A DNA stretch of 64,000 nt from Amoebidium appalachense (taxonomy: Eukaryota > Protista > Ichthyosporea). A program made the translations under genes and the position numbers. The notes beneath the pieces were generated by a model. That model saw nothing but the letters and a program-made list of their open reading frames with translations, was not told the DNA's origin and did no database searches. Location of the stretch: NCBI GenBank assembly GCA_963693365.1, contig CAVNZM010000011.1:3912139-3976138 (forward strand). Reading direction: 5' to 3'. This document shows positions 5,559 through 49,902 of the stretch, piece after piece (position 1 is the first letter of the stretch; each line of letters begins with the position of its first letter).

Positions 5559-5591
5559 GGTTGAAGAGATTCTTGAAAGATGTGAGATTCT

Positions 5592-5609
5592 GGAACTGCG
5601 CGGTCGCCA
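5592..5609 (-). promoter_or_regulatory. Primer binding site TGGCGACCGC, probably tRNA-Arg
   Basis: Directly follows LTR end; same TGGCGACCGC as Gypsy-2 PBS. Confidence 0.75.
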
Positions 5610-5610
5610 A

Positions 5611-6055
5611 TGTAAACAGTTGAACTAGTTGGGATAAGGCAGAGAACAACTGAATCAGAATAAAGACAGAGAACGGGTAGTAAGGCACACGCGGCCAGGT
5701 TACTATTTAATGTGCTCGTTCAGAGTGATCCCCCGTACTGGGACGGCTTGTTTATATAGCCCCCAGGTTCCGGATCATCTGGATGGGTGGCATTGATGCC
5801 TTCGTGACTTCTGACCAGTCACAAGAGTGCGGTCGTCTTTATGTGCACACAGTGCACCAATAACATGAAGCTAACTAAAAGGATAACTTTGTGGCAAATG
5901 ATTGGCCAATACTTAAGCCCGTTTAGGTTTATGCAACTGGGTCTGATTTCCTTATTGGTTCCGTTCGTTTAGCTATAGATGTCGCCTCCGTAGTGGATGA
6001 GACTTGCATTCCTATCCTAGCGGTTCTCGAATTCTGTTGGTTCATACTGACTGCA
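5611..6055 (-). repeat. 5' LTR of Gypsy-1
   Basis: Minus strand starts TGCAGTCAGT and ends ACTGTTTACA directly before the PBS; second LTR not in window, so the outer end is approximate. Confidence 0.6.
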
Positions 6056-6211
6056 CGGCCACTGCATATTGCCGGCGCCGCGGCTCAGTCGTGAGCCGCA
6101 GCCCGCGGCTGTCACGTGTGATATTGATCTGATCATATGTACACAATATCTACGTGATCACTATGATATGTACAGTATATTCGTAATAGTAAACATGTAC
6201 GGCGTGTACAG

Positions 6212-6727
6212 ATGTTTACACGCATCTCAAACTGCAAGACCGTGCGCATCACACACGTCGACACCGACCTGCCCAGCGACGACGAGGACACCTACACCGA
6301 CCCCGCGCCCCCCGTGCTCTTCATCCGCGCAGTCCAGCGCCTGACCATGACGAACCACTTCACCCCGTGGCGCGCCTACGACATGGAGACCCTGGTCGCT
6401 GTCCGCGCAGTATGGACCGCGTCGTTCATGCGCGCTATCCGCACCCTGTGCAGGCTGCGCCACCTGTGCATCGTCTGGATCGTTGCAAGTCCTTACCACC
6501 CGCGCGTCCGCGGCATGTGCCTTCCCGAACACCCCTCCTTCCTAGTCATGGAGGGCTTTGCAAGCGTCTCCTTGGACACGGAGTGCGCGCCTCGTCCGCG
6601 CCTCATCACCCCCATCACGTCCGATACCGTCGTCGTCGAGCTCGCCGGCGAGAAGTGGAGGGTCGGTGAAACGGCCCAGTTCTACGAGGTCGCACACGGC
6701 CTGTTTGCACGCGCGCCGCAGGCTTGA
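6212..6727 (+). CDS. Orphan protein, 171 aa
   Basis: ATG start, GC3-rich coding-like composition, AATAAA at 6805. Confidence 0.6.
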   Translation: MFTRISNCKTVRITHVDTDLPSDDEDTYTDPAPPVLFIRAVQRLTMTNHFTPWRAYDMETLVAVRAVWTASFMRAIRTLCRLRHLCIVWIVASPYHPRVRGMCLPEHPSFLVMEGFASVSLDTECAPRPRLITPITSDTVVVELAGEKWRVGETAQFYEVAHGLFARAPQA

Positions 6728-6842
6728 CCACACACGCACACACACCATGTACATTTAACTACACACACGCGGGGCTGGCCCCCGCCTTCACAACACACAA
6801 ACTCAATAAACGTCTGTTTGTATTTTTATTGGTGCCACACGT

Positions 6843-7133
6843 ATGGCGTATCGCTGGGAATACAAGCTCAAGGAGGAGCCAGGCAAGGCCCCCGTCATCC
6901 AGGCCACGGTTGTCCCCACAGAGGAAACGCAACGCCACACCGAGCGCGAGAAGCAGCGCTACGCCAGGGAGCTCGCGGACAAGGGCTACATCGACCTGCC
7001 CGACGAGCTCGCGCGGAAGTGCGGGTTCAAGCACTGGGTGCCCAAGAACCAGGCCATGACCGCGATTGTCATGCAAAGGATGTTAGAACCCGATGACGAG
7101 CCAGAGCCGCCCATGGAAAATAAAGAGAAATAG
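6843..7133 (+). CDS. Orphan charged protein, 96 aa
   Basis: ATG start, coding-like codon bias, AATAAA 7119-7124 just before the stop. Confidence 0.6.
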   Translation: MAYRWEYKLKEEPGKAPVIQATVVPTEETQRHTEREKQRYARELADKGYIDLPDELARKCGFKHWVPKNQAMTAIVMQRMLEPDDEPEPPMENKEK

Positions 7134-7164
7134 GCAGCGCGACAGATCAGGGGGGATGTTGTGG

Positions 7165-7302
7165 CTTTGATTGGTGCAAGGTCTTTGGATGTGACTTCTG
7201 ATTTCCGATTGGTGGATCTTGTGTTTGCTCTTTAATTGGTTCTTGATTGGTTGACGGGTGTGATCTGATTGGCTTGATGCTTGCGCGACATCCGGTATAA
7301 AA
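7165..7302 (+). promoter_or_regulatory. CCAAT-box cluster (ATTGG) plus TATAAAA upstream of the 290-aa ORF
   Basis: Five ATTGG copies in ~100 bp, TATAAAA at 7296-7302. Confidence 0.55.
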
Positions 7303-7364
7303 GCTTACCACACAAGAACAGGCCACCAGTTCGCATTTCCAATTTCACATGAACATTCTGTGTT

Positions 7365-8237
7365 ATGAAAATGCCGGTGCGCATGGAACTGACCCGCATC
7401 GCCACGGAGGACGAGCTCACGAGGTACCTAGACCGCAAATTTGAATGCGTTGCAGAATCCACGGGCGATGGCCGGGATTGGTCGTGCCTAATTGAGTCGA
7501 GATGGGACCACGCACACAGGGTGGCTATTCCCATTCTGTCAAACGGACAGATCAGTGTCCAGAGTGTTGGTGTAAATGGCATGACTCGTTATGAGCGCGA
7601 CGAACGTTCCATGCGCGGCTACATCAAACTGTACAAGCCCGGACACCCCGTTACCGACCCGACCCTCAGCGAATACTACTATGAATTCGACACCACGCTC
7701 AGCGACAGCGAGGCCGGCATGGGGTATGGTTACAGATGTGAACGACGGCCCCCCGTATACGCCACCAAGCCGACCAGAGACGGATGGGTTTTCTGGAACG
7801 TTTTTGGGGATCCAAACTTGGATGAAGTCGATGGTGTGGCGCCTGCCATGTCCAGGAAACCCTACTGGGTCATGCCCAGCCTCCTGTTTGAGAACGTCGT
7901 ATGCACTACCCCATCCCCTGCCGCGCCTCCGTCCACCCTGCAAGAGGGTGCCTACCGCGTCGGGATCGAGCACGGTGCCCCCGTTTCGATGGCCCCCGGC
8001 GCTGTGGCCGCTCAAGACTTCACCACCGCGCTTGACGACTGGGCCTCCGAGTGGCTCGACCCGTTCTTTGAGCGGGTCAACGTCCAGGTCGAGAACGCGG
8101 GTCTGCCGCTAAGGGACGCCGTGTTGGACACCGTCCACGCCCGCAACCGCACAACCGAGTTCTTCGGCCTGCCTCGCAGCCTGCGTAGAGGACCGACACC
8201 GTGGAACAACTCAGGCCATGTAGGACACGCACTTTGA
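7365..8237 (+). CDS. Orphan protein, 290 aa
   Basis: Long intronless ORF with TATA upstream and AATAAA at 8303. Confidence 0.7.
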   Translation: MKMPVRMELTRIATEDELTRYLDRKFECVAESTGDGRDWSCLIESRWDHAHRVAIPILSNGQISVQSVGVNGMTRYERDERSMRGYIKLYKPGHPVTDPTLSEYYYEFDTTLSDSEAGMGYGYRCERRPPVYATKPTRDGWVFWNVFGDPNLDEVDGVAPAMSRKPYWVMPSLLFENVVCTTPSPAAPPSTLQEGAYRVGIEHGAPVSMAPGAVAAQDFTTALDDWASEWLDPFFERVNVQVENAGLPLRDAVLDTVHARNRTTEFFGLPRSLRRGPTPWNNSGHVGHAL

Positions 8238-8435
8238 AGACGGCTTGCCGTGGATTTGTCCTCCGCGGACAGGCCCGCTTGGGGTCTTGTGGGTTTCGTC
8301 CTAATAAATGCAGGTGACTGGTCACCGGTGGCACTGTATCCGCTATTTTTGGAGGAATGTCATTTGTATATTGATAAACAATAAAACCCATTGATCGTTG
8401 GTCAGTCGTGTCAATTTAATCTTTTTCCTTGTGAA

Positions 8436-8783
8436 ATGGACGTGGAAGTGTACAACCCAGGGTGTTATTGGTACGTGGGAGATCGCGGGCGGTTAGACAA
8501 CATGCTGCGCAGCGCGCGTGCTCACTCTGGGACTGTGGTTCTTTCCGCGACGAGTGATTTGATTACACAAGTATGTGGAGTGGATCAAAAAAGCCGCTTT
8601 GTTGTGAACGCGTTGGCGAGCAGCCTGTCGATTCCAGATATATGTTGGAATGTCGGTGAACTCGTCGGTGTTTTGACAAAAACACAGTCTCGTGTACCGG
8701 AAGTCGTGGTGATTGCCAAGCGAGAGCCCTGGTGGGATCCACCTTTCAAAGGGGTGGGTCGTTTCAAGTTGATACGGGTGTAG
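8436..8783 (+). CDS. Orphan protein, ~115 aa
   Basis: ATG at 8436 (MDVEVYNPGC...), converges with the next ORF. Confidence 0.5.
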   Translation: MDVEVYNPGCYWYVGDRGRLDNMLRSARAHSGTVVLSATSDLITQVCGVDQKSRFVVNALASSLSIPDICWNVGELVGVLTKTQSRVPEVVVIAKREPWWDPPFKGVGRFKLIRV

Positions 8784-9033
8784 CACCTGAAAGTATTTTC
8801 TGTGCGGTTTCCGTCTCGGTGAATTGTGTGGATGTGGTGTATGTATATGCAAGCATTAGTGGCAACAGTATCCACAGCCAGCGAATCATGAAGTTGTCGC
8901 ATAATGGGTCCAGTATTGGGTGGGACCCGGTTTTTTGCTTCAGTGATCTGTTTATTCTATGAACGTCACATGATATCAGCGTCAACCAGAACAGGACGAA
9001 TGAGATGGCGGACGCGACTACCCAAGGCCACAT
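8764..9033 (-). CDS. Small membrane protein with two hydrophobic segments, ~89 aa
   Basis: MWPWVVASAISFVLFWLTLIS and FMIRWLWILLPLMLAY. Confidence 0.45.
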   Translation of the reverse strand: MWPWVVASAISFVLFWLTLISCDVHRINRSLKQKTGSHPILDPLCDNFMIRWLWILLPLMLAYTYTTSTQFTETETAQKILSGATPVST

Positions 9034-9134
9034 TGTGCACTTGTACCAATAAAAAGAGGAAGCCTGTGTCTGTCGCGCGATACGACCCTTCACAGCACCG
9101 CCTGGGCCTTTTTTTTCGATCCGTATCTAAATCG

Positions 9135-9310
9135 GATCTGGTTGGTCCGCCCGGTTTGACCGCTGATCTAATTGGTCCGCCCGGTTTGACCTCTGATCTG
9201 ATTAGTCCTAATTGGTTTGTGTGTTTTGACCGTTGATCTGATTGGTCCATCCGGTTTGACCGTTGATCTGATTAGTTCGCGTGGTTTGACCGCTGATCTG
9301 ATTGGTCCCG
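9135..9310. repeat. ~30-bp tandem repeat x6 with CCAAT-like core
   Basis: Units GATCTGATTGGTCCGCCCGGTTTGACCGCT and variants. Confidence 0.85.
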
Positions 9311-9622
9311 AACGCCGCGGTAATCACCATAATGGGAAGCATGTGTGGTGGCGTGCTTTTTGCGTGGTTTGGTTGGTTGTTCACTCGGCGAATTTTATTT
9401 TTTTTTTTTGCAAAGCGAAACGCGAGGCCACTTGATTGGCCAGACGAAATAATCACTCCAAAAAACGTGAAAGGCGAGCCCTTTAATTGGCCAAGCGAAA
9501 ATAAAGCATTGTTTTAATTGGCTATGTTTCTGCTGAGTTGAACCCTACGTGATGCGCATTGGTTCGTTTTGGTGGTTGCGCTAATGCAGATGTTTATAAG
9601 GACTCTTCGCGTCGCAGAAGCC

Positions 9623-9881
9623 TTCTGTTTTCCATCGTGAACGAGCCGTGTTGTAAGCGTCCTTTTTTAGAAGAGACTTTTTTTCTGTTTTCCATCGTGA
9701 ACGAGCCGTGTTGTAAGCGTCCTTTTTTAGAAGAGACTTTTTTTCTGTTTTCCATCGTGAACGAGCCGTGTTGTAAGCGTCCTTTTTTAGAAGAGACTTT
9801 TTTTCTGTTTTCCATCGTGAACGAGCCGTGTTTTAAGCGTCCTTTTTTTAGAAGAGATTTTTTTTTTCTGTTTTCCATCGT
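9623..9881. repeat. 60-bp tandem repeat, ~4.3 copies
   Basis: Lines 9661, 9721 and 9781 are near-identical; lies between TATAA (9595) and ATG 9972. Confidence 0.95.
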
Positions 9882-9971
9882 CTACGAACCGTGACATGTA
9901 GCGACACAAAATTTCGGTGTTTGATTGTGTTTTTAAGCCCGTTTGGAATCGTTCGTGTTAACGGGTTCACA

Positions 9972-10982
9972 ATGGCTTCTATTCGCTATGCTCGTGTCTC
10001 CGGGACTTTTCGGGTTATTATTGATTTCTTTGATGCACTGGAAACAAGACCCTCCCACAAGCGTGACCCGAGCATGCAAAGCCACATGCGGATTTCCCTG
10101 CCTTCCCTTGCCAGATTGTGGCGTCACGCACAGGTCCTCGCGGTGACTAACGAAACTGTCGTCGATTCGATTGACGAATATGATTTTTTGTTGGATAAGT
10201 TGCTCGACGTTTGTGCACATCTCACCCTCGACACCTCTGGTATAGCAACAATTGGTGTTCGTGACTTCCGGTTGTGTTTGAAAAAAATCGATGCCGATTC
10301 TATTTTTTCTCCCGACGTCGAAGTACATCGCTCCTACAAAGCTGATTGGGATGACGTTGTTGGCAAATGCATCGCGTTCATGACATATCGTGACAGTGCT
10401 CTATACGACCAAGACCCGTGGCCTGTGACCGATGAAGACAAGAAGGTTTTCAGTTGTGTGTTGGCCGAGTATTCGTATTTGTATGCCCTTACCTCCGCCG
10501 TGAATGCCCAGAAGAAGGACGAGATTGGGGCCCTTTCTCGTCAGATTAAAGTGCTACAGGCACAGAAATCCAAACTCACAAGCGACGTGTACAACAACGA
10601 ACAGCGTCTGAAGCGATATCACAACGTCGAGCCGAAAGAGTGTCATTTTGGTTGTGGTCTGCCTCGCCGACGCGGTTCTGGCGACTCCGTCAAACGACGT
10701 AAGAGTAGTTGTGACGATTTGGGTGGTGATGGTGGTGGTGATGCTCTTGCTTTGTATGTGAAGATGGAGTCTTTGGAGGAACATGTGCGTTTGGAACGTG
10801 TGCGTACATTGGCCTATTGCGAGTCAGGTGATGAGAGTGAAAGTGAAAGCGAAAGTGAAAGTGAAAATAGTGGTGATGACGACAATGGTGTATCTCTGGT
10901 TGTGTACCATAACACATCTCGTCCCTCTCTCCTTTTCCGTCCAAATATGAATGTACAATCCGATCATACCGAGGATGAATGA
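9972..10982 (+). CDS. Orphan protein, 336 aa, with coiled coil, basic NLS-like patch and acidic ES tail
   Basis: Long intronless ORF; LSRQIKVLQAQKSKLTSDV heptads, RRR...KRRK, ESESESE; AATAAA at 11099. Confidence 0.7.
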   Translation: MASIRYARVSGTFRVIIDFFDALETRPSHKRDPSMQSHMRISLPSLARLWRHAQVLAVTNETVVDSIDEYDFLLDKLLDVCAHLTLDTSGIATIGVRDFRLCLKKIDADSIFSPDVEVHRSYKADWDDVVGKCIAFMTYRDSALYDQDPWPVTDEDKKVFSCVLAEYSYLYALTSAVNAQKKDEIGALSRQIKVLQAQKSKLTSDVYNNEQRLKRYHNVEPKECHFGCGLPRRRGSGDSVKRRKSSCDDLGGDGGGDALALYVKMESLEEHVRLERVRTLAYCESGDESESESESESENSGDDDNGVSLVVYHNTSRPSLLFRPNMNVQSDHTEDE

Positions 10983-11164
10983 CCTGTATATAGAAAAAAC
11001 CGACACTCACCTTTTGGAATTTATATGCTCGAATTTAGATCATTGATGCTGATCAGAATATGTGGGTTGGGAATTGTTATACCCGTATTGTATGCTAAAA
11101 TAAACCCCCGTGAAGTATATACAGATCCCTGTTTTTGGAAACCCCCCCCCCCCCCCCCCGGCCC

Positions 11165-11365
11165 CCTGCCCCCCTGCCTCACGTGCCTCACGTGCCCCCT
11201 GCCTCACGTGCCCCCCTGCCTCACGTGCCTCACGTGCCCCCCCCTGCCCCCCCCTGCCTCACCTGCCTCACGTGCCTCACCTGCCTCACGTGCCCCCCCT
11301 GCCCCCCCTGCCTCACGTGCCCCCCCCTGCCTCACGTGCCTCACGTGCCCCCCCCCCCCTGCCCG
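11165..11365. repeat. TGCCTCACG / CACGTG-rich minisatellite
   Basis: Repeated CCTGCCTCACGTGCC separated by C runs. Confidence 0.85.
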
Positions 11366-11370
11366 GGTCA

Positions 11371-11902
11371 AGACTTAGCTCGTGTAGACTTAGCTTTTTT
11401 CTCTCTCTCTCTCTCTCTCGTGTAGACTTAGCTTTTTTCTCTCTCTCTCTCTCTCGTGTAGACTTAGCTTTTCTCTCTCTCTCTCTCTCTCTCGTGTAGA
11501 CTTAGCTTTTTTCTCTCTCTCTCTCTCTCGTGTAGACTTAGCTTTTTTCTCTCTCTCTCTCTCTCGTGTAGACTTAGCTTTTTTCTCTCTCTCTCTCTCG
11601 TGTAGACTTAGCTTTTTTCTCTCTCTCTCTCTCGTGTAGACTTAGCTTTTTTCTCTCTCTCTCTTTTCTCTCTCTCTCTCTCTCTCGTGTAGACTTAGCT
11701 TTTTTCTCTCTCTCTCTCTCGTGTAGACTTAGCTTTTTTCTCTCTCTCTCTTTTCTCTCTCTCTCTCTCTCTCGTGTAGACTTAGCTTTTTTCTCTCTCT
11801 CTCTCTCTCGTGTAGACTTAGCTTTTTTCTCTCTCTCTCTTTTCTCTCTCTCTCTCTCTCTCGTGTGGACTTAGCTTTCTCTCTCTCTCTCTCTCTCTCT
11901 CT
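11371..11902. repeat. Compound minisatellite CGTGTAGACTTAGCTTTTTT(CT)n, ~13 copies
   Basis: Directly visible. Confidence 0.95.
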
Positions 11903-11994
11903 GTCTGTGCCCGTGTCCATACTTAGACGTTTTGCTCCCTGTCCCCGTTCCCCGTTCCCGGCCTATTTCTGATTGGTTTCTTGTCTTTACTTTA

Positions 11995-12852
11995 TTAGGC
12001 AAATAGGCGCGTGATGCTGTTGGTCGGGACACACAGCTTGCCGGTGGGTCGGGCAGTGACGTCAGCCACGAATCCGGGTGCGATGATTGGCTTCACTTCC
12101 GGCTCTGGAATGTGTGGCTCCATCAACACCTCGAAGTCTTGCACCATGCTTGGGTCGGTCCAGCCACGTGCCTGTGTGCAGTAAACACGCCAATGGGCTC
12201 TCGCCACGTGCACGGCCTCCGTGTAGTCGGTGTATGTGCCGATCTTGTGGTATTGCCCTTTCTTGTGCGCCATTGGAAACCTCACCTCGAAATAACCTTC
12301 GCGGGTGTTAACGAACCGGCATGGCTGCCCTGCGATTCGTTTCTTGAGTTGGTTGTACTCAGTCGGCCGTATGCAGAGATTGGTCCGTCGGTTGTCGGCT
12401 TTTGATTGGTTTAGGTGATCGATCTGTAAGCCGCCACTTGTGGTGATAAGGCCTTGGAAATAGCACACCAGTTGATGAGCCGTTGGTGCCTCTGTTTCGT
12501 GTTGGTTCCACCCGGGCAGGTACAGCCGCAGATAGCCTCCACTGCTACATACCCATCCCACACGTGTCGCCCATGCCATGTCCTCTTCAGAGAAACGCCA
12601 ATCGCACCCATCCATGTGTATCTTATCAGCACCCACTACCTGCATCTCATTGGCTTCACTCCACGTGTGCATCACCGGCTCGTCATCCTTATCGTACCAG
12701 TACAGTCCGAATCCACCGCCCTTTGCCCTGTTGGCTTCATACCATGAAATTAACTGGCTGGGCTCGTATATGCATAGAGCCACCAGAAATTTACACCATT
12801 GCGGTGCTTTGTGTATATTGTCGTTGTTCACTACCTGCTGCACTGGCAACAT
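11995..12852 (-). CDS. HNH endonuclease with C-terminal AP2-like DNA-binding domain (phage HNH-AP2 type), 285 aa
   Basis: EEDMAW..GW..SSGGY..AHQLV..QIDHLNQSKADNRRTNL..YNQ, then RFV..YFEVRF..HKIGTYTDYTEAVHVAR; AATAAA overlaps the stop. Confidence 0.8.
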   Translation of the reverse strand: MLPVQQVVNNDNIHKAPQWCKFLVALCIYEPSQLISWYEANRAKGGGFGLYWYDKDDEPVMHTWSEANEMQVVGADKIHMDGCDWRFSEEDMAWATRVGWVCSSGGYLRLYLPGWNQHETEAPTAHQLVCYFQGLITTSGGLQIDHLNQSKADNRRTNLCIRPTEYNQLKKRIAGQPCRFVNTREGYFEVRFPMAHKKGQYHKIGTYTDYTEAVHVARAHWRVYCTQARGWTDPSMVQDFEVLMEPHIPEPEVKPIIAPGFVADVTARPTGKLCVPTNSITRLFA

Positions 12853-13785
12853 ATGTTATGCACACATAATATTTTCCTCACCCCACCCCGCGTGCCTCCC
12901 GTGCCTCCTGTGCCTCCCGTGCCTCCTGTGCCTCCTGTGTCTCCTGTGCATTCTCCGTTCCCCGTTCCCCGGCCTGATCCTTAGTGTGATACTATGTCAT
13001 CGCGTTTAAGAAATCTGTCTGTTGTCATTGGCCACTTACCCACTTAGAAGTGGGTAATGCTCTGTCGTTTGTTTTGTCTCCTTTTTTTTTTCTTTTTTTT
13101 TGATTTTAAGTGGGAAAAGTGGGAAGTGGGAAATAGATTGATCGCGATCGGATCGGAGGTGGTTTGGTGTGGTGTGATCTCAAAGAGTTACCAGGCCACG
13201 TGACTAGTCCAAACATCGAACCCACGGCCCTCTGAAAAAAAGACGGCCTGGATACAGAACGGGGTCAAAAGAGCAGATTGGTATTTCGATCCACTGGATT
13301 CGCTAGCAAACTACTATCATTGCGCAGATTATGAAGGAAAACGGAAGGAAAAAAAAAAACGACAAAAGTTTATGAAGTGCTTCCTATGTTCTAGGGCGTT
13401 TTTTTGTCTTAAAGTAATATGCGCAAGCCCTATAGCACAAAGTTTTGGCATAGTGTACATAATAGTGTAGCTGAGTCTCAGTATAGTTATATCTATTGAG
13501 CAGTTCACGTTTACACAAACACGGCCGTGAGCAAAGATCTACTATAAAACTAGAACTCTTCTTTGCGTATATTCTCTCAAAGGTGTTTCTATCCACTAGG
13601 TAACATAATACTACCTGTATGTTAAGTATTAGAACGTCTATGTCCTGCAACACTAACCACCAACCAATCAACACTGTGTAGCCCCCCCCCCCCCCCCCTC
13701 CTCCCCCCCCCCCGGCAAACCCTCACAACTCTACCTACTGGCAAAAAAAGAAAAGAAAGAGGGTTAGAAAACACTGACAAAGCCG

Positions 13786-15009
13786 CTAGAGCTCTGCTTC
13801 CTCCACATACGCCTCTACCATCCAATCGTACTCCGCCTCTGCTGCCTCCAGTGCAGCCACCAGCTCGTCATCGCTTCCCTCCATCTCCCACTCGACGGTA
13901 GGTGGTTCCGCCGTGGTTGTTTTGTTTTCACCTTCCTTTCCCTTCTTCCTCCCTTCGCCTCCCTTTTCCTCTGTTTTGCTCTCCTTTTTCTTCTTTGCTG
14001 GTTTTGTCGACGGCATGCTCCCTGCAACTGTGGCTGGGACGCCTGCCCCCGCGGCGGCCTCGCTCGCCGCCAAAGCGGCCGCCTGCACTGTTTTGGCTTT
14101 CCGGTTTGCTTTGTTGGGTGCTTTCTTCGCTTGTTCCTTGCGTTGACGCACATACGCGCTCAGGTGGCAGTTGGTTGCAACGGTTATCAGTCGTTCCACT
14201 AGTGCTCTCTTTTGCGTGCCGCACACCCCACACTCGTCCATAAGTGCCTTATCGGTATTGTACCTTTTGACTGCATGTTCGCTGAGTAGGACAGCCACCG
14301 TTCTATGGCTGCCCCCCGGAAGGTACGTGTTGACCAGTGGCTTTAGCAGTGCCTCCACCACACAGTAGACCAATGTGACAATGCTCACTGTTGGTGGTGA
14401 AGGGAAAGTCAGGCCCCCCCGATTGGCGGCGCGGATGAGTCGGTAGTGATCGTCTGTGGCTCTCCCGGCCGTAGTGGTGGCTGTTTCTGTAGCTGTGGTG
14501 CTTGTTTCAGTGGGTGTGTTGGTGTTTTTGTTGGGTGTAGTGATTTCGAGATGTGCACGACATGTGTTGCAGCCAACACCGCGCACGTGAAGCGCGTGCA
14601 CACAGAACCCTGCCCGGTAGGTTAGCACCTCTGGCTTTCTGATGTCTTCGCTGATTTTATAGACGTGGCCCCAGATGGTGTTGTTGTAGAGTGGGAGAAT
14701 GGTCTCGATGGTGATCGTTTTGCGTTTGCTGTTGAGCGCTGTGTTCATGTTGTCGAACAGCTGTGTTACACTTGTGCCCGTCTGCACTGCCAGCTTTGCC
14801 AGCTTCTGCACCCGTATCCTTTTGACGGCCTGGAGAGTCTGTTCATAGAGGTGAGTTTATTGTGTGATTTGTGTATATATTGATGGCACGTGGCTATAAA
14901 AGTTTAATATGACACAATATGGCGCGGGCGCGCAAGCAGTGTATCATAGCATATCTTCGTGTGTACACAAGCATGGTTTAGGTATATCTGCATGGGGTTG
15001 TGTATGTAT

Positions 15010-15056
<47 letters not shown>

Positions 15057-15901
15057 TACGGTGTGTGTGTGTTTGTGTGTGTGTGGTGTTTGGTGTATGT
15101 GTGTCTGTGTGTCTGTGTGTGTGTGTGTGTGTGTGTGCGTGTACGTGTGTGCATTTTTGTGGTTTGAGTTCAACAGCCCCCCCCCCCCCCCCCCCCCCCC
15201 ACCCCCTAATTTCATTTTTCGTTCAGTTTTCTTTGCACCCTTTCTTTTCACCACACTCCTTTTATCCTGATACCCCCCTCCCCCTCCCCTCCTCCTCCAA
15301 CCCCTTCTTCCGTCCCTGCCTCTCTCGCTATCCCCCCCCCCCCCCCCCCCCCCCCCCTTTTTTTTTTCTCCTGATTATTTTATTCCCCGGGGCCACCATG
15401 TCATGACACCACTATCCCATTATTAAGGCGAATCACCAAATCATCCTATATCTGTTCTGTCTCTGTTCTTTGTAATGCTGTATGAATCGTGTGTGTGTGA
15501 TGTATCTCTTGTGTTTCATTGTTGCAGGCAGTGGGTGGGTGGCTGAGTAGGGTAGGGGTGTGTGTGTGTGTGTTGGGGGGGGGGAGGGGGGGGGGGGGGG
15601 ATCCAGGAGGGGAGGTACCCACCTGTGCTGTCCCAACGTTGTAGTTCCCACCGCTGTACTGTCGGATTGTGCCAAAAGCACCCTCAAGGGGGTCGGTTTG
15701 AAACTTTCTGGTGAGCACAAAGTTGAGCTTCTCGCCGCTCACGCCGCTGTCCAGGAGATAGCGGATGAGACTGGCCTGCAAATTAAAAGCCAGCAAAATC
15801 TGTGTGGCACCACATTTGACTACGCTTGGCATGTGAAAAACCATATGGAAAAGCCCCCCCCCCCCCCCCCCCCCCCCTCCCCGCCCACCCATCCCGACAC
15901 A

Positions 15902-15944
<43 letters not shown>

Positions 15945-16041
15945 AGAGAGACACGCACACAAACACACTGATGCGCGCGCACACACACACGTGTCACACA
16001 CACACACACACACACACAGTGTCACACACAGACACACACAA

Positions 16042-16075
<34 letters not shown>

Positions 16076-16155
16076 TTCATGCCGGTCGACTCCTCATGTG
16101 ACCTTGTGTGTTGGGGGGGTGAAGGGGCGAGGGCATGAGGACATTGGAGGGGATT

Positions 16156-16189
<34 letters not shown>

Positions 16190-18519
16190 ACCATTGTCTT
16201 GCTCGTAAACGCCAGCGACCACTGTGTTTCCTCCGTAAAACCCCCCTCGCCAGTAGGCATGCTCACCACCCACTCAGCGAATTTCTCCAGCCAAATCAGC
16301 CGCTGGTCACTGCTGCTGGTGAATGCAGCACACCATGGGTCCAATTTGCGCGCCGCATATGTGGTGGTACCGATGTTCATAAGCTTCCACCACCGTGCGA
16401 TTTGTTTTAGGAAGTTTGCGGTGAACTTAAACAGGGGTTCATCAACCACGTGGTTGTCGAGCGCAGCAATGGTGGACTCGTGGAACACAGCCAAAGCTGG
16501 CCCCACCTTCTGCTTGTCGAAGTTGTTGGGCCAGAGAACGGTGGGTGTGAGTTTGAAGGCCTCCTTGAGTGCCTGCCCGCCTTCAGACTCGTAGATAGTC
16601 TGCACCTGCCGAAAACATGCCGTCCCCACCTCGAATGAGAGATCGATTTTTTGACCGTCAATCTCCCACACAAAAGTGAACCCACTGTAATTGATGGACT
16701 GCTCTGTGTCCTTCTGATTCACCCAGTTGTTGCGAATGCACTTGAGTATGTGCACAGGGTCTGATATAATATACAGCCTCTTTCCGGGGTCTGTAGGGTG
16801 GTCCACATACGGTGGTGTGTTCTTGTAACCACTCACGTTTGCCAGCTTGCGAAACAATGCCCGGTTTATGGCATTGTTGTCAGCAATGACAGCAACCGTA
16901 TGGAGCCCAGCATAGGCTAGTGCCTCCAGCGCGTTCACCAGCTCGTCACCCAAAAACTCAGCGGTCTGGTTGCGCACAGGTATCATGGACACAAAATCCT
17001 TGCCCAATTTGGATATAATCGAGTCAAAGAAAAATGCCTGCACTTGGCTTGCAGACTGCCCATCGGGCTGATTGAGTGCTACCCCAGTAACTTGCCCACC
17101 ACGAAAATCGAGGAGATCTGTTACGTGGATCTCATCCAGTAACAGAACTCCCATTTTCTCTCTTTTACTCATAGCATGTGCCATTAGTGCAAGGTATTCC
17201 TCGTTCACACCACTAGCGTCGAGGAGGTCCGTAGATGTAAGCCCCTCGTGCTTGCTCCGCACATTGCGCTCGTGGGGCAGGACCAAACACCCGAGCTCCC
17301 TCAGTCTCTCATAACCGGCGGGAGAGCTGGCGTGCAAGGCGATGGCTGTGTGCATGGTCCTATCACCATACCTGTACAGGTTTGGCGGGGTAGACACAAG
17401 TTGTGCCTGCTCGGCCTGAAAGAAGCACTGCTTGGCCCGATCCTCGTTTCCATCCTCCTTGAAATGGTTTCCTGCAGCAATCAACAACGACTGGGCAGAC
17501 GCAAGTGCCTCCATAGCATAGTCGTGTTGTGACAGCCCGGTCGCCCTATAATAATGCTGACCCCTACAGTCTTCCTCTCGAGGCACCGGCAGAGGATCAG
17601 CATTATCTTGGTCAAACACCAACAAGGGAGGAGAGAGGGAAGGGTGTGTGGACAAAGGCTCGATGCACCGAGTAAGATCGTTCCATGTGTCCAGTGTGCC
17701 CGTCGCCTGACAATGCTCTGTCGCCACCCACGTTATGTTGCCTACTGCTAGAGTCAGGTAATTGGAAGGAAGCACGGTTGGGGTGTGGGAGTAAACTGCT
17801 GAACGAAAAGTCGAGTCACTATTGATCATTACTGACGCTCGCATGGTAACGCTGAATGATGGTTTGCATAGAAGCATGCCTGGAAGCCAGAAAACCACCG
17901 ATTTCCCCTCGCCTATTTCCGTTCCGACGCTTTGAACCCTCCAGCCGGCGTGCCGCTCCGCTATTTCCAGGGCACGGACAACAAGCTGGCCGAACACGAA
18001 CATCTCCTTCTGGCGCTTCCTCGCTACTGCCTCTTCCTCTTGCCTTGCCCGAACCTTCTCCATCTTTGCGGCTCTCTCTTCCGGGTCCATACGAGGAGGC
18101 GCGGAAGGGGTGCTCAGGTAACTGGGGCAGTTGGGAAAAATGCTCGGGACGGCGCCTGGCCTAGGCCACGTTTTGCCACCTTTTTTAACGATGTCATGGG
18201 CGGGAAAGTGACGGCCGCAGACCCGCGCAACACCGTGCGGGTCGAAGTTCTCAGGCCACTGCCTCGGCACAGCACGTAGCCACGCACTGAGAAGGTTCCG
18301 TGTTTCTTCGCGTAGCGTCTCGCTTTTAATGCGCCCGTCGTTTGGGTTGGGGAATTTGTAAACGAAAACCTTGTTTTGGTCGTCGTAGTTGCCTCTGCAG
18401 CCTGGAACACTGCATATGTTACCGATTTTGTTGCTACGCAGACCGTTACTCCTCTTCTTATCCATTCCAGGCTCGGGAGGAGCAGCTCCCTTCATAAGGC
18501 CAGTCCCGCCGTCAGCCAT
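13786..18519 (-). CDS. THAP-domain P-element transposase, ~1177 aa; exons 18519-16192, 15775-15623, 14838-13786
   Basis: THAP C2CH motif (CSVPGC..W..VCGRHF..AVPSIF), LLLDE, IADN, DPVHILKCIRNNW, FQTDPLEGAFGTIRQ, NRGGLTFPS; both introns GT-AG phase 0 and give an open frame. Confidence 0.9.
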
Positions 18520-18674
18520 GTTACCGATGTCTCCGTCTTTGAACCAAAAAAAGCGAGACGTAAACGAAAAACAACAACATACATGTTCTGTGCCGACATC
18601 TCGTTTTAGGGCCGGAATCCAGTGGATCGAGATACCACGAGCACAATGGAATGCGATTTTATGACGTAGTGTAT

Positions 18675-18766
18675 TGTTGGAATACGTCACCATGTATGAC
18701 AGCAAGAGCCTTGAAGTATGTATGTGTCCTAGCTTGTTTGTATTCGTGTCTGCTTTCCTCCTTTGT

Positions 18767-18844
<78 letters not shown>

Positions 18845-19606
18845 TCTCTCCCCCCCCCCCCCCCCCCCCCCCCGTATCTCTCTCTCCCTTGTTTCTGTGG
18901 GCACAGATATCTGTAGATCTGTGCACACCTGGCTCTCTTGCCTGATAAGAACGTATTGTGTTTTTATTTCTATTTGCTCTCCTCTGTTTATCTGAGAGGT
19001 AGCGTGATTGGCTAGCCTCACTCGTTGTCTTTCCTTTATTTCAAAATGGCCTAGTTTTGTTCTCAAAAGGATGGCTCGCCAATAGTCGCGAGCGAGTACA
19101 TCTGTAGATTGTGTTGTGCATTCCTGTCTGTTAATATATGTGTGTTGTGATTGGACAATAGATATATATGGAATTCGGTTTATTGCAAAGTGTCTTCACT
19201 TTGAGAGTGTCGACTGTTAGGAAATATATGTATTTAAATAAGTCTCCTTATAGAGACGAACATAAATATATATGTGAGTTAATAGTGACTAGATGTGTAA
19301 TTACTTAATTTATTTAAGTAAGAGTTTCTACACTTTAGCTTAATCGGAAGTTGGAATGCGTATGCTCTATCGGAATGTGTTTTTTCTATCTTCTGATAGA
19401 ACCGATTGGTTCTCCCTCTTTAGTTGTGATAAGGTGATAAGTCGCAAGTACAAAAGGAACCGAGAGCACAATAAAGATTCAGTTGTTGTTTGAAATCTTT
19501 TCAATGTCTCGTGAACAACTCCGATTGCCCTCTCATTAATGTGTTAGTCGTGTTTTACATGACACCTCTGTGCACTCTGCTCCCTTAGACCCGTACAAAA
19601 ACAACA
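18675..19606 (+). mobile_element. Solo LTR related to the Copia-1 LTR
   Basis: TGTTG...CAACA ends, 5-bp TSD TGTAT, long blocks alignable to 21240-22129. Confidence 0.9.
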
Positions 19607-21239
19607 TGTATCCAGGCCGTCTTTTTTTCAGAGGGCCGTGTCGAACCCCCTCAACCAGGGGGATGCACATTTCCCCCCTCCTCAATATCGTGTATACAGG
19701 ATATTTGAGATGCTCGTGTGACCTGGAAGCGGTGGAATTTTTTTCTCCTGAAGCCGCCCATTCCCAACCCAGGGGGGAGTTAGCCCCGGTTGCCGCAAGT
19801 ACTACTGTACGACAAGGAGCTCATGCTCGACTAGGCATGTGTGGAGCTGGCATGGTAATGGGACGAGGTACTCTGATCATAAAAGGAACATGAAATATTC
19901 GACCATAGACTTCCAGGCAACTTGCACAGATACACCTGTGGACCATTCCACGCCAAGTATGACGTCACAGCTCGCACAGCCGGGCCGGAAACATATGCCA
20001 CGCATGACGTCACCACGAGTATCCGCTTAGCTCGGACAAAAAAGTGCAAAATTTCCCCATGCTATATGTGCCCCCCCCCCCCCCCCCCCCCTCCCTCCCT
20101 CCCCACACACTGGCACACACGGGTACCCACACACACACTACAAAGCCACCACCATCACCACCGGCAAGATCTAGAATGATCTGCGATCTGATCCGGAATT
20201 CCATGTGAATATCCGGAATTCCATGTGAATATAAAATCTGAAATACAATCCAGTGAAAAACTCGCCCAGTTTTATTATCCAAAGCCACTGCCCGCAGTGC
20301 CTCTTATTGCCCATATATGGAAAAATTATGATTATGGCATGTCCAAAAAAGGAAACTTGTACCTGGTATAAGAATATGGGCATTTGTGTCCACATGTCAC
20401 CGTGATTAAATTAAAAGCTTAACGTTCACAGTTACATGACGCTATGAAACCTTATGATTGTGGTGAAGAAAAATATGTTTTAAAGTTAACAAGGAAAGAA
20501 GAAAATATCCCTGTCAGTGAGTTGGGGATAGAAAAGTATGGATTAAAGTTAAAAAAAAATCCCTGAGTTGGGGATAGAAAAGCATGGGTTAAAGTTAAAA
20601 AGGAAAGGAAAAGTTAAAAAAGAAAGGAAAAGACAATCCCTGAGTTGGGGACAAAGTGCAAAACATGTCTGTGTCTGTTGGTGGTGTAAGGCAGTGGTTC
20701 GTTTCATGCAAAAAGTTTTAAATCGTCTATCGACAACAACTGCCTAAATTGGGTATCGATACTACATGTACGTTGGGTGTGCATGTGAGCATGAGGAATT
20801 CTTAAGGGCAGTGTTCGATGCAAATGTTCGAGTCCAAACATATCATGGTATCCACACTGATGCCTCAACCAATCACACACCAACACCAACTCCCTTAAAA
20901 TTTAACGAATCCACCGTAAAGAACCTTCTCTGTCTCACCCTGCCTTCCCTTACAGTTGTCCACGCTCGAGCTTATGCCAAATATGGTATCCACACCAATG
21001 CCTGAACCAATCACACACCGGCCCCTTAAAGGGCCTTCTTTGTCTCTGCCTGCCTGCCTTAAAGTCGTCCATGCTCGAGCTAATTCTCAGCCATGCACAC
21101 AGTGAGTCCATGAGATCCACTGGGAGCATGCGGAAGAGGGGGTACAGGTACACCATGCGAGGCATGCACAGCACCTGCTGACCAGTCTGAATGGCCTCCA
21201 CAATCTGTATGTACGTGTACGTGTGTACGTGTGTACGTG

Positions 21240-22129
21240 TGTTGAAATAGACATAGACAGCAAGAGTTTGAAGTATGTATGTGTCTTAGCTTATTTGTAT
21301 TCGTGTCTGCTTTTCTCTTTCAAGTTGTGCTTTTGGTCTTTTCTCTCTCTCCCTCTCCCCCCCCCCCCCCCCCCCCGTATCTCTCTCTCTCCCTCCCGTG
21401 TTCCTGTGTGCATAGACATCTTGAGATCTGGGCACACCTGGCTCACTTGCCTGATAAGAACTTATTGTATTCCATTTCTGTTTGCTCTCCTCAGTTTATC
21501 TGAATAGTAGCATGATTGGTTACCTATAGTCGTTGTCTTTGTGCCTTTGTTCAAGCAGTGATAGCTCACCAATAGACGCGAGTAAGTACACTCGTAGATT
21601 GTGTTGTGCATTCCTGTTCAGTACGTTTAATCATAGACGTGTTATGATTGGACATTTTGTTTCTGTATGGTATGTGTCTCGAGATAAGATATCTTCTCTC
21701 TAAAGAGTGTCATCTATTAGGAAACATATGTATTTAGACGAGTTTCTTTATAGAGACAAGTATAAATATATATTTGAATTGATAGTGACAAGTTGTCTGT
21801 ATTACTTAATTTATTTAAGTAGTGTTTTGAGACTTCTGCTGGGTCAGAAGGTAGAATAGCGTATGCTATGGTGGAATGTAGTTCTCTATCATTCGGAAGA
21901 GCTGATTGGTTCCTTTTCTGTATTTTTGATAAGATGAATATTTGGCCCGGTACAAAAGGGCTCGAGAGAGATCAATAAACTTCAGTTGTTGTTTCAAAAT
22001 CTTTCATGTATCGTCAACAACTCCGATTGCCCTCTCATTATTGTGTTGGTCGTGTTTCTACATGACACCTCTGTGCACTCTGCTTGCCGTAGACATAAGT
22101 ATAGTCCCGTAGAATTATACAAACTAACA
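21240..22129 (+). repeat. Copia-1 5' LTR (890 bp)
   Basis: TG...CA, near-identical to 58653-59540. Confidence 0.95.
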
Positions 22130-29666: not shown

Positions 29667-30045
29667 GGTTTTATTTGTGGAAATTATTGACATAAATATT
29701 TTTCTGGGTAAACACGTAGGATGGGTGTTCGATACCAACATAACCATGTAGGCTTCATTTCGTGTTTTAGCAGTTAGCGGTTGGCTGCCCGCACACGGGC
29801 ACCTATTAGCCAGTCAAAACATCAGATACCACAGATCACTAGACCGAGTTATGATTGGCTCGGATCAGATTTCACATATCACTAGATCGATTTTTGATTG
29901 GCTCAGATCGGTAGGCTTAGGTATATAAGCACGACAGTTTTTAGCAGATCAGCAAGCTACAAACACATCTTCTGTGTTTAGCATCCACAGCCTTACAGCT
30001 ATATATTCCTTTTCATTCTCCCTATCTTTCCCTACGCCGGTCAGC

Positions 30046-31217
30046 ATGCCGCCGAAAAAGCGCCAGGCCTCAGCCGCCGCCCCTGCCGCGGCACCTAAGC
30101 GCCTGACCCGCAGCGACCTCCGCCACAGGCTGACCAACGCTCCCGCGGACACTGACGCGCCTCCAGCGGCCCATACCACCACGGACCCGGACCCGCCGGC
30201 TACTCTCCCCTCCACTCCTGAAGTCCCCCCTCAGGCCCCGCCGTCCCCGCAGATGACTTCTCAAGACGCCGTCCTGGCCGCCCTCACCGCCATCAGCACC
30301 CAGATGGCTGGCGTCCTGGCTGCTCTCACCAACCGCGACCCTCCCGCGCCCCCCGCCGCGCCCTCCACACCCGGGGAGGTTTCCCCGGGGCTGCATCTCG
30401 GCCCTGACCTAGACCTGCCTGCCCTGCCCGCGCCCCCCATCACAGGTGAGAACACTGGCGACATTCAGCCGGGCACACTCCCGCTTCCCCCCGCGGATGT
30501 GCTGGCAGATTTGCGCGCCAATCGTTTCGTCGACCTGTATAAGTTCACCCCCGCCGCCCTCCTGGCCCCATCCAAGAAAGGTCAGCATCTGCGCATGGCC
30601 GACGACGGCAGCATCGAGACTTTTCGCCAAGACAAACCCGTTCCCCTGCGTTCACTCGTCATTTGGATCCAAGCTTGGACCCATTACAAGTGGCCGCCAA
30701 GCACCACCTCGGCCTTCCCACGGACAAAGACGTACTTTGGACTCAGCACATCACTCGCCTCAGCACCCGATACCCGTGGGCCCAGATCCACAACTATGAC
30801 GTATACGCCCGCACCGTGGCCCACCAGCAGGGTCGGGCTCCGATCGAGTGCCCCAACCTGCTCGCCCAACTCCACCAGGATCTCCTCCTGCCACCCACTC
30901 TGCTCATCCAGGACGCATGTCAGCGCTGTGGCTTCCCCGACCACCCCAGCGCGGCATGCCCCATGTACCCCAAGCCCGGCTGTGGTCTTGACGGCTTTAA
31001 GCCGCCCCACAAGCCCGGCGGGGGTCACACCCCTAACCGCCCTGGCCCGCAACCCGGCCCGGCAAAACCGGCCCGACCCGTGGATCTACCCGCGACGCAC
31101 TGCAGGAATTTCCACATTAACGGTCGGTCCTGCGCTAAGCAGCCCTGCCCCTTCTCCCACGTGTGCCCGCTCTGCTCTGGCACACACCCCCGCAAAGACT
31201 GCAAGCACAATGCCTAG
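30046..31217 (+). CDS. Ngaro ORF1 gag-like protein (frameshift ~30690)
   Basis: WIQAWTHY..RYPWAQIHNYD; C-terminal CRNFHINGRSCAKQPCPFSHVCPLCSGTHPRKDC zinc fingers. Confidence 0.75.
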
Positions 31218-31610
31218 TCTACGCGCACACCCACACACACAGCTAGAACATAGGGGTTAGGAGCTAGGACACACGAGGACAGGGAAACGGAGCTCGGGAG
31301 AACGGGCCAATAGGGCTGAGTACAAAATTTCGCAAGCCAACTACGGCGCCCGCGCGCGTCAAGAATAAATGTCCCTACACAAAGACGTTTATTCTGGCCA
31401 CTGCACATAATTTTACTCCCCCCCCCCCCATCCCACGAGCCTCCCCCCCCCCTTACACTCACCTAGCACTCCCTCCCCCCCCCCCTTCTTCTACCGCTGT
31501 GTCCGCCCACACCCCGTGCTCGGGCACATTCCCCTGCACAGGGCCCCGCTGCCCTCCCTGCCAACCCTCACTTGGGCCCAGCTGCCCTACTCTAACCCCC
31601 CGGGGCCCTG

Positions 31611-31652
<42 letters not shown>

Positions 31653-31867
31653 CTGCCGGGATCTCCCCAAGGGTACACCACCCTTGCTAACCACCCCTTC
31701 CCCGAGGCTCAGACTCGGAGGCCCGCCCGCTGCCCCAGCACCACATTGACACCTCCCGCCTCCGGGAACTGCTGGCCTCCTACCCGGACCAACCATTTGC
31801 CGCACAACTCCTCCACGATGTCGAATTCGGCGTCGACATCGGCTATCGCGGCCCCTCCACCTCTCGG

Positions 31868-33334: not shown

Positions 33335-33551
33335 CCCCCCCCCGATTTCTGTGTGGCATCTCGGCTGCAATCCTCCTCCGGGTCCTCCCTCCCGGCCTCC
33401 CCACACACCGTGCAACTTTTTCTCGCCTGGTGTGCCCAACGAGGGGTACAGGCCTCTTCCTTAACCGGCTACAATTCGGCCATCACCAGGCTCCACCTCG
33501 ACATGGGCCTCCCTGCTCCCTACCCCCACGACAAGTCTCTGGCCTGGTTCC

Positions 33552-39430: not shown

Positions 39431-40821
39431 GTTCCTACGGGGGGTAGGCCGATGGCAGCTTTCTCACAACATCCGACCCTGCTCATCCACCAGGGAACCC
39501 CTCCTCCCCTCCCACCTCCGCCTACTCCATGGCCAGTGCCCCACCAAGGCCTCCTCGGCCAATCTCCGGCTATGGACGGCCCTCATCGTCGGTTTCTGTG
39601 GTCTCCTCCGTTCAGGGGAATTTACCTCCAAGACCCTGACTTCTTTCGACCCGTCCCGTCACGTTAAACGGAAGGATGTGACCTTCAGCTACACCCCCAC
39701 CGGTACTTTGTCCCATGCCACCCTCCACCTGCCAACCTCTAAAACGGATGTACAGGCCCGAGGTGTCAACGTCACCCTAGCTGCCCTGCCCCTCACCCAC
39801 TTCTCCCCAGCCCATCTCCTCCGGCAGTTCCTGGATACAACGTCCGGTCAACCCGACGACCCCCTCTTCAGTCTCGGTGGCATCCCCTACACCAAGAGTG
39901 CTTTCTCTGCCGATTTCCGTGCCCTCCTCTCCCGGGCAGGCCTCTCACCCTCCCGGTTTGCCGGACACAGCCTCCGCATCGGGGGGGCCACAGCACTGGC
40001 TGAGGCCGGGGTCGACGACTCCCGGATCAAACAACTCGGCCGGTGGTCCTCCGACTGCTTCCTGATCTATACCCGACTTCGTCCGGCCTCCATTGCTGCC
40101 ACCACCACACGTGTATTCGCCTCTATTCTTAAGTGAAACCTTTGGAGCAAGCATACTGCTCTCGTGCCGTGGTTTACAACCATTGCAGGTTCACTTTCGT
40201 CCAAGGGGATGTCCCCCTAGAGGCAACACACGTCCCGGTGTAGTTTTTATAGAGGTTTTATTTGTGGAAATTATTGACATAAATATTTTTCTGGGTAAAC
40301 ACGTAGGATGGGTGTTCGATACCAACATAACCATGTAGGCTTCATTTCGTGTTTTAGCAGTTAGCGGTTGGCTGCCCGCACACGGGCACCTATTAGCCAG
40401 TCAAAACATCAGATACCACAGATCACTAGACCGAGTTATGATTGGCTCGGATCAGATTTCACATATCACTAGATCGATTTTTGATTGGCTCAGATCGGTA
40501 GGCTTAGGTATATAAGCACGACAGTTTTTAGCAGATCAGCAAGCTACAAACACATCTTCTGTGTTTAGCATCCACAGCCTTACAGCTATATATTCCTTTT
40601 CACCCACCCACCTACACCCACACACAACCCCCATTGATCCACACATACGTGCTGTTTTTTCACGGGGCGAAGACTTCCCCCGTTTTTTGGGCACATGGAC
40701 CTCACGGATCAATAAATTGATGACTGGGGGCTTGCCGTGGTTTACAACCATTGCAGGTTCACTTTCGTCCAAGGGGATGTCCCCCTAGAGGCAACACACG
40801 TCCCGGAGTAGTTTTTATAGA

Positions 40822-48843: not shown

Positions 48844-48956
48844 CTAGATGATAACGTAGCCTTATAGCTGCTGATGACTTCATGGGCCAACCTTGCCAAA
48901 ACCTGTAAAGGAACTCGAGCTAAGAATTAGCTCATCCTACTTGCGAGAAGTGGGGG

Positions 48957-48995
<39 letters not shown>

Positions 48996-49860: not shown

Positions 49861-49891
<31 letters not shown>

Positions 49892-49902
49892 GCGCGCACG
49901 CA

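What the first reader, a model, noticed from the sequence alone, without database searches (positions are those of the whole stretch)
6056..19806. Virus-like orphan gene block ending in a Polinton-type ACTACT: candidate new endogenous DNA virus or giant element
Seen: seven tightly packed intronless ORFs, most with AATAAA at or near the stop and two with TATA plus CCAAT arrays, unlike the intron-rich host gene in this window; I do not recognise six of them. After excising the P element the block runs on to ...GCAAGTACTACT (19806). Known: many Polinton/Maverick termini read AGTAGT...ACTACT, have 6-bp TSDs and repeat-rich long TIRs. Inference: this is the accessory arm of an integrated Polinton-like virus whose core genes lie left of Gypsy-1. 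The terminus rests on a single hexamer.
Basis: partly seen in the sequence, partly recalled or inferred. Interest (0 to 1): 0.8.

Follow-up and report, generated by a model that had tools for sequence, protein, structure and literature searches.

The report
Multicopy orphan-gene element, end misplaced
A 5-kb block of intronless genes with no recognisable relatives is likely one interrupted copy of a young, repeated mobile element, probably an integrated DNA virus, but the six-letter end signal proposed for it is likely not the family's end.

Summary
The gene block is real, but both proposed boundaries are doubtful. Six credible intronless ORFs lie in 6221-12852, with enriched AATAAA and two CCAAT/TATA promoters. 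Five have no significant match in any library tried; the sixth is a weak HNH nuclease.

Contigs of four public runs show 6221-11135 as a young repeat family with 0-9 differences per long contig. Its contig depth is 4.5, 7.7 and 23 times that of the contig over 19641-19975. The Gypsy LTR runs to 6220, not 6055, and other copies continue at least 826 bases further left.

The tail ending in ACTACT lies on one unbroken low-depth contig that runs past 19806 in three runs, so most family copies lack it. The hexamer arises by chance in 40% of shuffles. One contig does show a homology break at 19808, so a separate low-copy junction there is possible.

No capsid, polymerase, ATPase or integrase gene was seen. 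Best reading: the accessory arm of a Polinton-like endogenous virus (0.45); main rival: a non-viral giant element (0.3). The host was not identified.

The parts
5611..6220 (-).
   Evidence: One 610-bp contig of high depth covers exactly 5611-6220 and loose ends behind it differ between contigs; TG...CA ends with inverted 8-mers; gag and pol to the left
6221..6727 (+). ORF-A: open frame of 168 codons, inferred 3' part of a gene cut by the Gypsy insertion; orphan
   Evidence: ATG at 6212 is inside the LTR; other copies run on 448-826 letters left of 6221 (table 8); GC3 0.84; no Pfam, NCBIfam, PDB, IMG/VR or metagenome relative
6843..7133 (+). ORF-B, 96 aa, orphan, AATAAA just before the stop
   Evidence: GC3 0.82; no significant family
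7140..7364 (+). Promoter-like stretch: 6 CCAAT boxes and TATAAA 69 nt before ORF-C
7365..8237 (+). ORF-C, 290 aa, orphan
   Evidence: No homologue; model unusable, pLDDT 33.7
8436..8783 (+). ORF-D, 115 aa, orphan
   Evidence: Both listed variants synonymous; only repeat-protein artefacts in HMMER search of 1.84 billion proteins
9105..9893 (+). CCAAT-bearing 30-bp array, TATA-like site near 9594, and 4.5 copies of a 60-bp unit ahead of ORF-E
9972..10982 (+). ORF-E, 336 aa, orphan with acidic tail; residues 216-284 faintly resemble the second PHD finger of BRD1/BRPF1 (lead only)
   Evidence: No homologue; PDB E=0.25 whole protein, 0.029 for a fragment picked afterwards, no Pfam hit at E<=10
11143..11906 (.). 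Tandem arrays (9-bp GC-rich unit, then 34-38-bp unit with CT runs); candidate subterminal region; copy depth not measured
   Evidence: contigs of the family run on past 11135 into it
11995..12852 (-). ORF-F, 285 aa, HNH endonuclease-like; flanked by an 18-nt direct repeat (11942-11959, 12952-12969); family membership not measured
   Evidence: PHROGs HNH E=3.4e-6; Pfam HNH_3 E=4.4e-4, 20.3 bits, below the 24.8 cut-off; phage HNH 30% identity over 95 aa
12877..13215 (.). Second 9-bp array akin to 11143-11360, and a perfect 10-bp hairpin at 13036-13057
   Evidence: Alignment score 74 against a null maximum of 46 in 100 shuffles
13223..19640 (-). Nested P-superfamily transposon with intron-split THAP transposase; ORF 13786-14748 lies inside it
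   Evidence: 34-bp perfect TIR; TSD 13216-13222 and 19641-19647; THAP E=1.2e-10
18675..19606 (+). Solo LTR nested in the P element, 5-bp TSD
   Evidence: 76% like the LTRs at 21240-22129 and 58653-59540; TSD; other P copies lack it (loose ends before 19607)
19648..19806 (.). Low-copy tail ending in ACTACT; not shared by most copies of the block
   Evidence: Single contig 19641-19975 in X5, X6, X13 at depth 18.9, 78.4, 343.8
19808..19916 (.). Stretch that one run also holds with a different left neighbour: possible junction at 19806-19807
   Evidence: X5 record 20, 516 bp, depth 60.6, 2 other letters and 9 gap letters, 394 unlike letters to the left

Best explanation
The block 6221-11135 is one Gypsy-interrupted copy of a young repeated family of intronless orphan genes, likely the accessory arm of an integrated Polinton-like DNA virus whose core genes would lie left of the Gypsy and whose usual right end is likely between 11135 and 13222 rather than at 19806. 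Shown: the ORFs, the TATA/CCAAT/AATAAA signals, near-identical copies, continuation left of 6221, and the nested Gypsy, P element and solo LTR. Inferred: the genes are built for transcription by host RNA polymerase II in the nucleus; the family spreads as a whole by integration of new copies; copy number differs between the sampled strains; this copy was later hit by three transposons. The low-copy tail ending in ACTACT is read as flanking DNA or as the end of a second, older element.
For: Long contigs over the block differ from the window by 0-9 letters. Median contig depth is 429, 354 and 2661 against 18.9, 78.4 and 343.8 for the contig over 19641-19975, ratios 22.7, 4.5, 7.7; contig depth is not a copy number, so 'several to about 20 copies' is inference. 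15 of 24 listed runs hold half or more of the block's words. The ORFs look maintained: of 12 indel rows shown (of 18), 11 fall outside the five + strand ORFs that cover 62% of the stretch, and the one inside is 6 nt. 9 of 21 listed coding substitutions are synonymous (weak). An HNH gene, nested retrotransposons and intronless genes are all reported for Polinton-like viruses or Mavericks (PMC12220804, PMC8097293; passages). Three ORFs have no relative among 5.8 billion proteins of similar length, as is common for viral accessory genes (own knowledge).
Against: No capsid, pPolB, ATPase, protease, rve or tyrosine-recombinase gene in about 7 kb. Coding density is only 62%, looser than typical for such viruses (own knowledge). 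No TIR pair is shown. Whether copies are dispersed or tandem is unknown. Depth over 11135-13222 was not measured, so the HNH gene may not belong to the family. Substitution density is the same inside and outside ORFs (21/3030 against 14/1885).
Confidence: 0.45

Rival explanations
1. The block is cargo of a non-viral giant mobile element or of a tandem giant repeat (Plavaka-associated, tyrosine-recombinase, Helitron-like or unclassified), moved by an enzyme encoded left of the Gypsy.
For: Multicopy, intronless and loosely spaced genes with large internal tandem arrays; no viral hallmark gene. [quoted passage not shown]
Against: No transposase or recombinase in the block; cargo of such elements often has recognisable relatives, these ORFs have none; HNH is more usual in viruses (own knowledge).
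Confidence: 0.3
2. One reading: block, HNH gene and tail form one Polinton arm whose terminus is ACTACT at 19806, followed by a 6-bp target duplication.
For: The hexamer matches the (ACT)2 3' end documented for vertebrate Mavericks (PMC8097293, passages). A homology break at 19808 in one X5 contig, within 2 bases of the predicted end. Related 9-bp arrays on both sides of the HNH gene tie 11143-12969 together.
Against: A TIR end should be at least as deep as the body; it is 4.5-23 times shallower and lies on one unbranched contig through 19806 in three runs. The hexamer is found in 40% of shuffles. The break is seen in 1 of 4 runs and starts at 19808, not 19807.
Confidence: 0.1
3. Fragment of an endogenised giant virus (Nucleocytoviricota) amplified in the genome.
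For: Intronless orphans and an HNH gene; gene-rich intronless giant-virus insertions occur in intron-rich protists (PMC11244446, passages).
Against: CCAAT/TATA promoters and AATAAA point to host polymerase II rather than a virus's own transcription machinery (own knowledge); near-identical high-copy spread is less typical; no NCLDV family hit.
Confidence: 0.08
4. Lineage-specific host genes multiplied by segmental duplication in a transposon-rich region; not a mobile element.
For: Host-type promoter and poly(A) signals; no mobility gene seen; faint likeness of ORF-E to a host chromatin-reader domain.
Against: No introns, unlike the host gene in the window; depth ratio varies fivefold between runs while the neighbouring tail stays low; HNH gene of phage type.
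Confidence: 0.07

Closest known systems
Polintons/Mavericks and adintoviruses
   Same: Intronless ORFs; accessory region of unrelated genes; ACTACT equals the commonest vertebrate Maverick 3' end motif (PMC8097293, passages)
   Different: None of the core genes (int, ppolb, atp, pro, major and minor capsid) is seen; no TIR pair or 6-bp TSD shown; the ACTACT tail is not shared by most copies
Endogenous Polinton-like viruses of protists
   Same: Multicopy young insertions, HNH endonuclease genes, nested retrotransposons (PMC12220804, PMC10120064; passages)
   Different: No capsid gene found; HNH is free-standing whereas the cited study finds it mostly fused; looser gene spacing; no ORF matches IMG/VR contigs
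Plavaka-associated giant repeats of Amoebidium (comparator only; the window's host was not identified)
   Same: Repetitive intron-poor gene clusters amid intron-rich host genes (PMC11244446, passages and supplementary legends)
   Different: No Plavaka transposase or tyrosine recombinase in the block; tandem arrangement not shown
P superfamily DNA transposons (for the nested element)
   Same: THAP transposase, short perfect TIR, 7-bp TSD
   Different: Carries a solo LTR at the inner edge of one TIR

Membership tests
Polinton/Maverick | Protein-primed DNA polymerase B and rve integrase | tested here: inconclusive
   No such Pfam hit in the block's ORFs, but the element continues outside the window and no genome is held
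Polinton/Maverick | Double jelly-roll major capsid, minor capsid, packaging ATPase, protease | tested here: inconclusive
   No family hit; two single-sequence models too poor to use (pLDDT 33.7 and 39.3)
Polinton/Maverick | TIR pair with (AGT)2//(ACT)2 ends | tested here: inconclusive
   ACTACT present at 19801-19806; no partner in the window at up to 3 mismatches; the other end would be outside the window
Polinton/Maverick | The same terminus shared by the family's copies (tested for 19806) | tested here: not met
   Tail contig 4.5-23 times shallower than block contigs and unbroken through 19806 in X5, X6, X13
Polinton/Maverick | 6-bp target site duplication | not testable with these tools
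   Left end not available
Polinton/Maverick | Intronless genes | tested here: met
   Six uninterrupted frames; no RNA data to confirm the transcripts
Polinton-like virus (endogenous) | PLV major capsid protein within a 14-40 kb TIR-bounded unit | not testable with these tools
   Only about 7 kb of one arm is in the window; at least 826 further bases exist to the left in other copies
Plavaka-associated giant repeat | Flanking Plavaka transposase or tyrosine recombinase genes; tandem clusters | tested here: inconclusive
   None in the block; arrangement of copies unknown
Giant endogenous viral element | NCLDV core genes (capsid, VLTF3, A32, D5) | tested here: inconclusive
   None in the six ORFs; remainder not visible
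P superfamily (nested element 13223-19640) | THAP transposase, TIR, 7-8 bp TSD | tested here: met
   the TSD length rule is recalled

The most novel reading that the evidence does not exclude
A currently spreading family of integrated DNA viruses, or a new class of large mobile element, whose proteins have no detectable relatives in public collections. In run X5 the copies form long contigs at about 20 times the depth of the flank, with rare variants at flank depth, which would fit a very recent burst or extrachromosomal replication. If uninterrupted copies prove to hold no known polymerase, capsid, integrase or transposase, this would be a new kind of element.
Probability: 0.12. Interest if true: 0.85.

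Novelty: new member of a known kind. Interest (0 to 1): 0.45.

Why it matters
Young, strain-variable families of large gene-bearing elements are the raw material for virus discovery in eukaryote genomes and are missed by marker-gene screens when their proteins are this divergent. Here five genes with intact frames and host-type promoters have no match in any library tried. The family is multicopy, so an assembly search would yield uninterrupted copies and settle its class at once. If it is an ordinary Polinton-like virus it is one more of thousands; if it lacks known core genes it is a notable new element.

Tried and rejected
Whole genome: none held. Homologue searches without result: ORF-C, ORF-E, ORF-F in 5.8 billion proteins, near lengths only; exact look-up of 10 proteins, 0 found; ORF-D in 1.84 billion representatives gave 4 hits, all tandem-repeat proteins, rejected; Atlas, no usable hit for ORF-D and only sub-0.9 hits for ORF-E 1-230; IMG/VR scans for all six ORFs, where the 2 loci for ORF-B are by eye an RNA-virus polymerase matched through one short word, rejected; metagenome scans for ORF-C and ORF-A; NCBIfam; Rfam on 5600-21300, 0 matches. 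ORF-A and ORF-B were not run against the large protein collections. Folding: single-sequence models of ORF-C and ORF-D were low confidence and their fold searches uninformative (best Foldseek E 0.024 and 0.49; best Z 3.7, rmsd 3.6, 62 aligned). A recalled likeness of ORF-D to a decayed SF3 helicase core got no support and was not excluded. The 17-mer at the proposed end has 4 exact matches in IMG/VR with no further similarity by blastn or tblastx, judged chance. No RNA holder listed, which says nothing on expression. X1 has no cover over 19653-19882; a hole is not used as evidence. Earlier findings: nothing for this genome or sequence; one unrelated note from another genome.
Full report
Setting. 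The window is a eukaryotic transposon nest: Gypsy, copia, a DIRS/Ngaro-like element, a P element and satellites. One intron-rich host gene of the short-chain dehydrogenase family lies near 60237-63010. No genome is held, and the host was not identified.

The genes. Six frames look like real genes: 6221-6727, 6843-7133, 7365-8237, 8436-8783, 9972-10982 (+) and 11995-12852 (-). Three exceed 280 codons, which none of 300 shuffles reached even once; second codon positions are the GC-poorest in all six. AATAAA lies within 120 nt of the stop in 5 of 6 and is enriched, 11 against 3.1 expected. CCAAT boxes cluster before ORF-C and ORF-E at 6 to 10 times the window's density. A seventh gene is doubtful: 8904-9236 is hit by 10- and 20-nt indels in other copies, and 13786-14748 lies within the P element; by recalled motifs it is the transposase's last exon.

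Identity of the genes. Only ORF-F has a family: HNH endonuclease, PHROGs E=3.4e-6, Pfam below cut-off, 30% identity to one phage HNH. An AP2-like C-terminal part is a by-eye, recalled likeness. ORF-C, E and F have no relative among 5.8 billion proteins of similar length; ORF-D has only artefactual hits among 1.84 billion representatives. ORF-A and B were tested only against profile libraries, IMG/VR, and for ORF-A the PDB and metagenomes. ORF-E 216-284 faintly resembles the second PHD finger of BRD1/BRPF1 (E=0.25; 0.029 for the fragment chosen afterwards), without most zinc ligands and without a Pfam hit. It is a lead, not a result.

The block is a young repeat family. Of 24 runs listed, 20 hold part of 6056-11140 and 15 hold half or more. 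Four runs were laid on 5560-11135. Long contigs differ from the window by 0-9 letters. Their median depth is 429 (X5), 354 (X6) and 2661 (X13), against 18.9, 78.4 and 343.8 for the contig over 19641-19975, giving ratios of 22.7, 4.5 and 7.7. Contig depth is not a copy number; I infer several to about 20 copies, differing between samples. Of the 12 indel rows shown (of 18), one falls in the five + strand ORFs and it is 6 nt long. Of 35 substitutions listed in 6221-11135 (from 40 rows shown of 59), 21 are in those ORFs and 9 are synonymous; their density equals that outside ORFs. The frames are thus kept, while the amino-acid signal is weak.

Left boundary. The Gypsy LTR spans 5611-6220, not 5611-6055: one contig covers exactly that span, and contigs leave it for different neighbours; its ends are TG...CA with inverted 8-mers. 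The finding's first 165 bases and the ATG at 6212 are therefore LTR. Other copies continue left of 6221 with non-LTR sequence for at least 826 (X5) and 448 (X6) letters.

Nested elements. The P element spans 13223-19640 with a perfect 34-bp TIR and a 7-bp TSD. A solo LTR with a 5-bp TSD sits inside it at 18675-19606. In X5 the flank contig extends 78 letters left of 19641; in X6 and X13 it starts exactly at 19641. I infer that versions with and without the P insertion exist.

Right boundary. ACTACT is the commonest vertebrate Maverick 3' end, with 6-bp TSDs and TIRs of 46-1447 bp (PMC8097293, passages read). But the hexamer occurs 6 times in the window, and in 799 of 2000 shuffles of 19648-21239. 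If it were the family's TIR end, the tail should be at least as deep as the body and contigs should break at 19806. Instead one contig runs 19641-19975 unbroken at low depth in X5, X6 and X13, and no loose end behind 19806 is among the 23 rows shown of 74. Against my reading: X5 record 20 (depth 60.6) matches only 19808-19916 and is unlike the window for 394 letters to the left, so a junction lies within 2 bases of the proposed end in that one run. I put the chance that 19806 ends some low-copy element at about 0.4, and that it is the block family's usual end at about 0.1. The family's end is more likely in the repeat-rich 11135-13222, where related 9-bp arrays and an 18-nt direct repeat flank the HNH gene.

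How it most likely works. A large DNA element integrates as a unit and multiplies; its genes carry host polymerase II signals and no introns, as expected of a virus that replicates in the nucleus. Endogenous Polinton-like viruses are 14-40 kb, carry HNH genes in some clusters and are often hit by retrotransposons (PMC12220804, passages; PMC10120064, two passages). In one intron-rich protist, three kinds of intron-poor giant repeat are described: giant-virus insertions, about 30-kb adintoviruses and Plavaka-associated clusters up to 50 kb (PMC11244446, passages and supplementary legends; its figures and gene tables were not seen, and if the window came from such a genome the element may already be catalogued there). 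PMC10175614 (passages) was read for context only. It may work like a Polinton-like virus; membership is not shown, and one membership test (shared terminus at 19806) was not met.

Novelty. Most likely a new member of a known kind with unusually divergent genes. I make no claim that it is absent from print: the five paper searches answered were for comparators, and the host is unknown. Interest 0.45; 0.85 if uninterrupted copies lack all known mobility and capsid genes (probability 0.12).

Noticed in passing
window 19655-19733 and 49904-51338: The tail weakly resembles the 183-bp satellite unit (score reached by 1 of 200 shuffles); it may be a relic of another repeat family.
   Followed up: partly
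window 13036-13057: Perfect 10-bp hairpin with a 2-base loop in the repeat-rich region; if the X5 flank contig follows the empty P site, its start would fall near 13138, hinting at a branch point near 13138-13168 (speculative).
   Followed up: no
window 11942-11959 and 12952-12969: An 18-nt direct repeat brackets the HNH gene, as if the cassette entered or could leave by recombination.
   Followed up: partly
window 29667-40821: DIRS/Ngaro-like retroelement with split direct repeats (29667-30015 = 40254-40602; 40165-40253 = 40733-40821) inside a Gypsy, itself interrupted by a copia with identical 768-bp LTRs (33550-34317, 38663-39430): five-layer nesting.
   Followed up: no
window 47437-56082: Imperfect inverted repeats (47437-47499, 56023-56082) with AT-rich subterminal motifs enclose the 183-bp satellite and microsatellite tracts; possible large non-autonomous DNA transposon.
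   Followed up: no
window 19947-20018: Short higher-depth repeat with two TGACGTCA motifs; other copies leave the window's sequence at 20018 in all four runs.
   Followed up: no
window 9623-9893: 4.5 near-perfect copies of a 60-bp unit lie between the TATA-like site and the ATG of ORF-E, which would make a long repetitive 5' leader.
   Followed up: no
L001, L002: Two IMG/VR contigs that by eye encode a tombus-like RNA-dependent RNA polymerase after a readthrough stop; unrelated to the finding.
   Followed up: no
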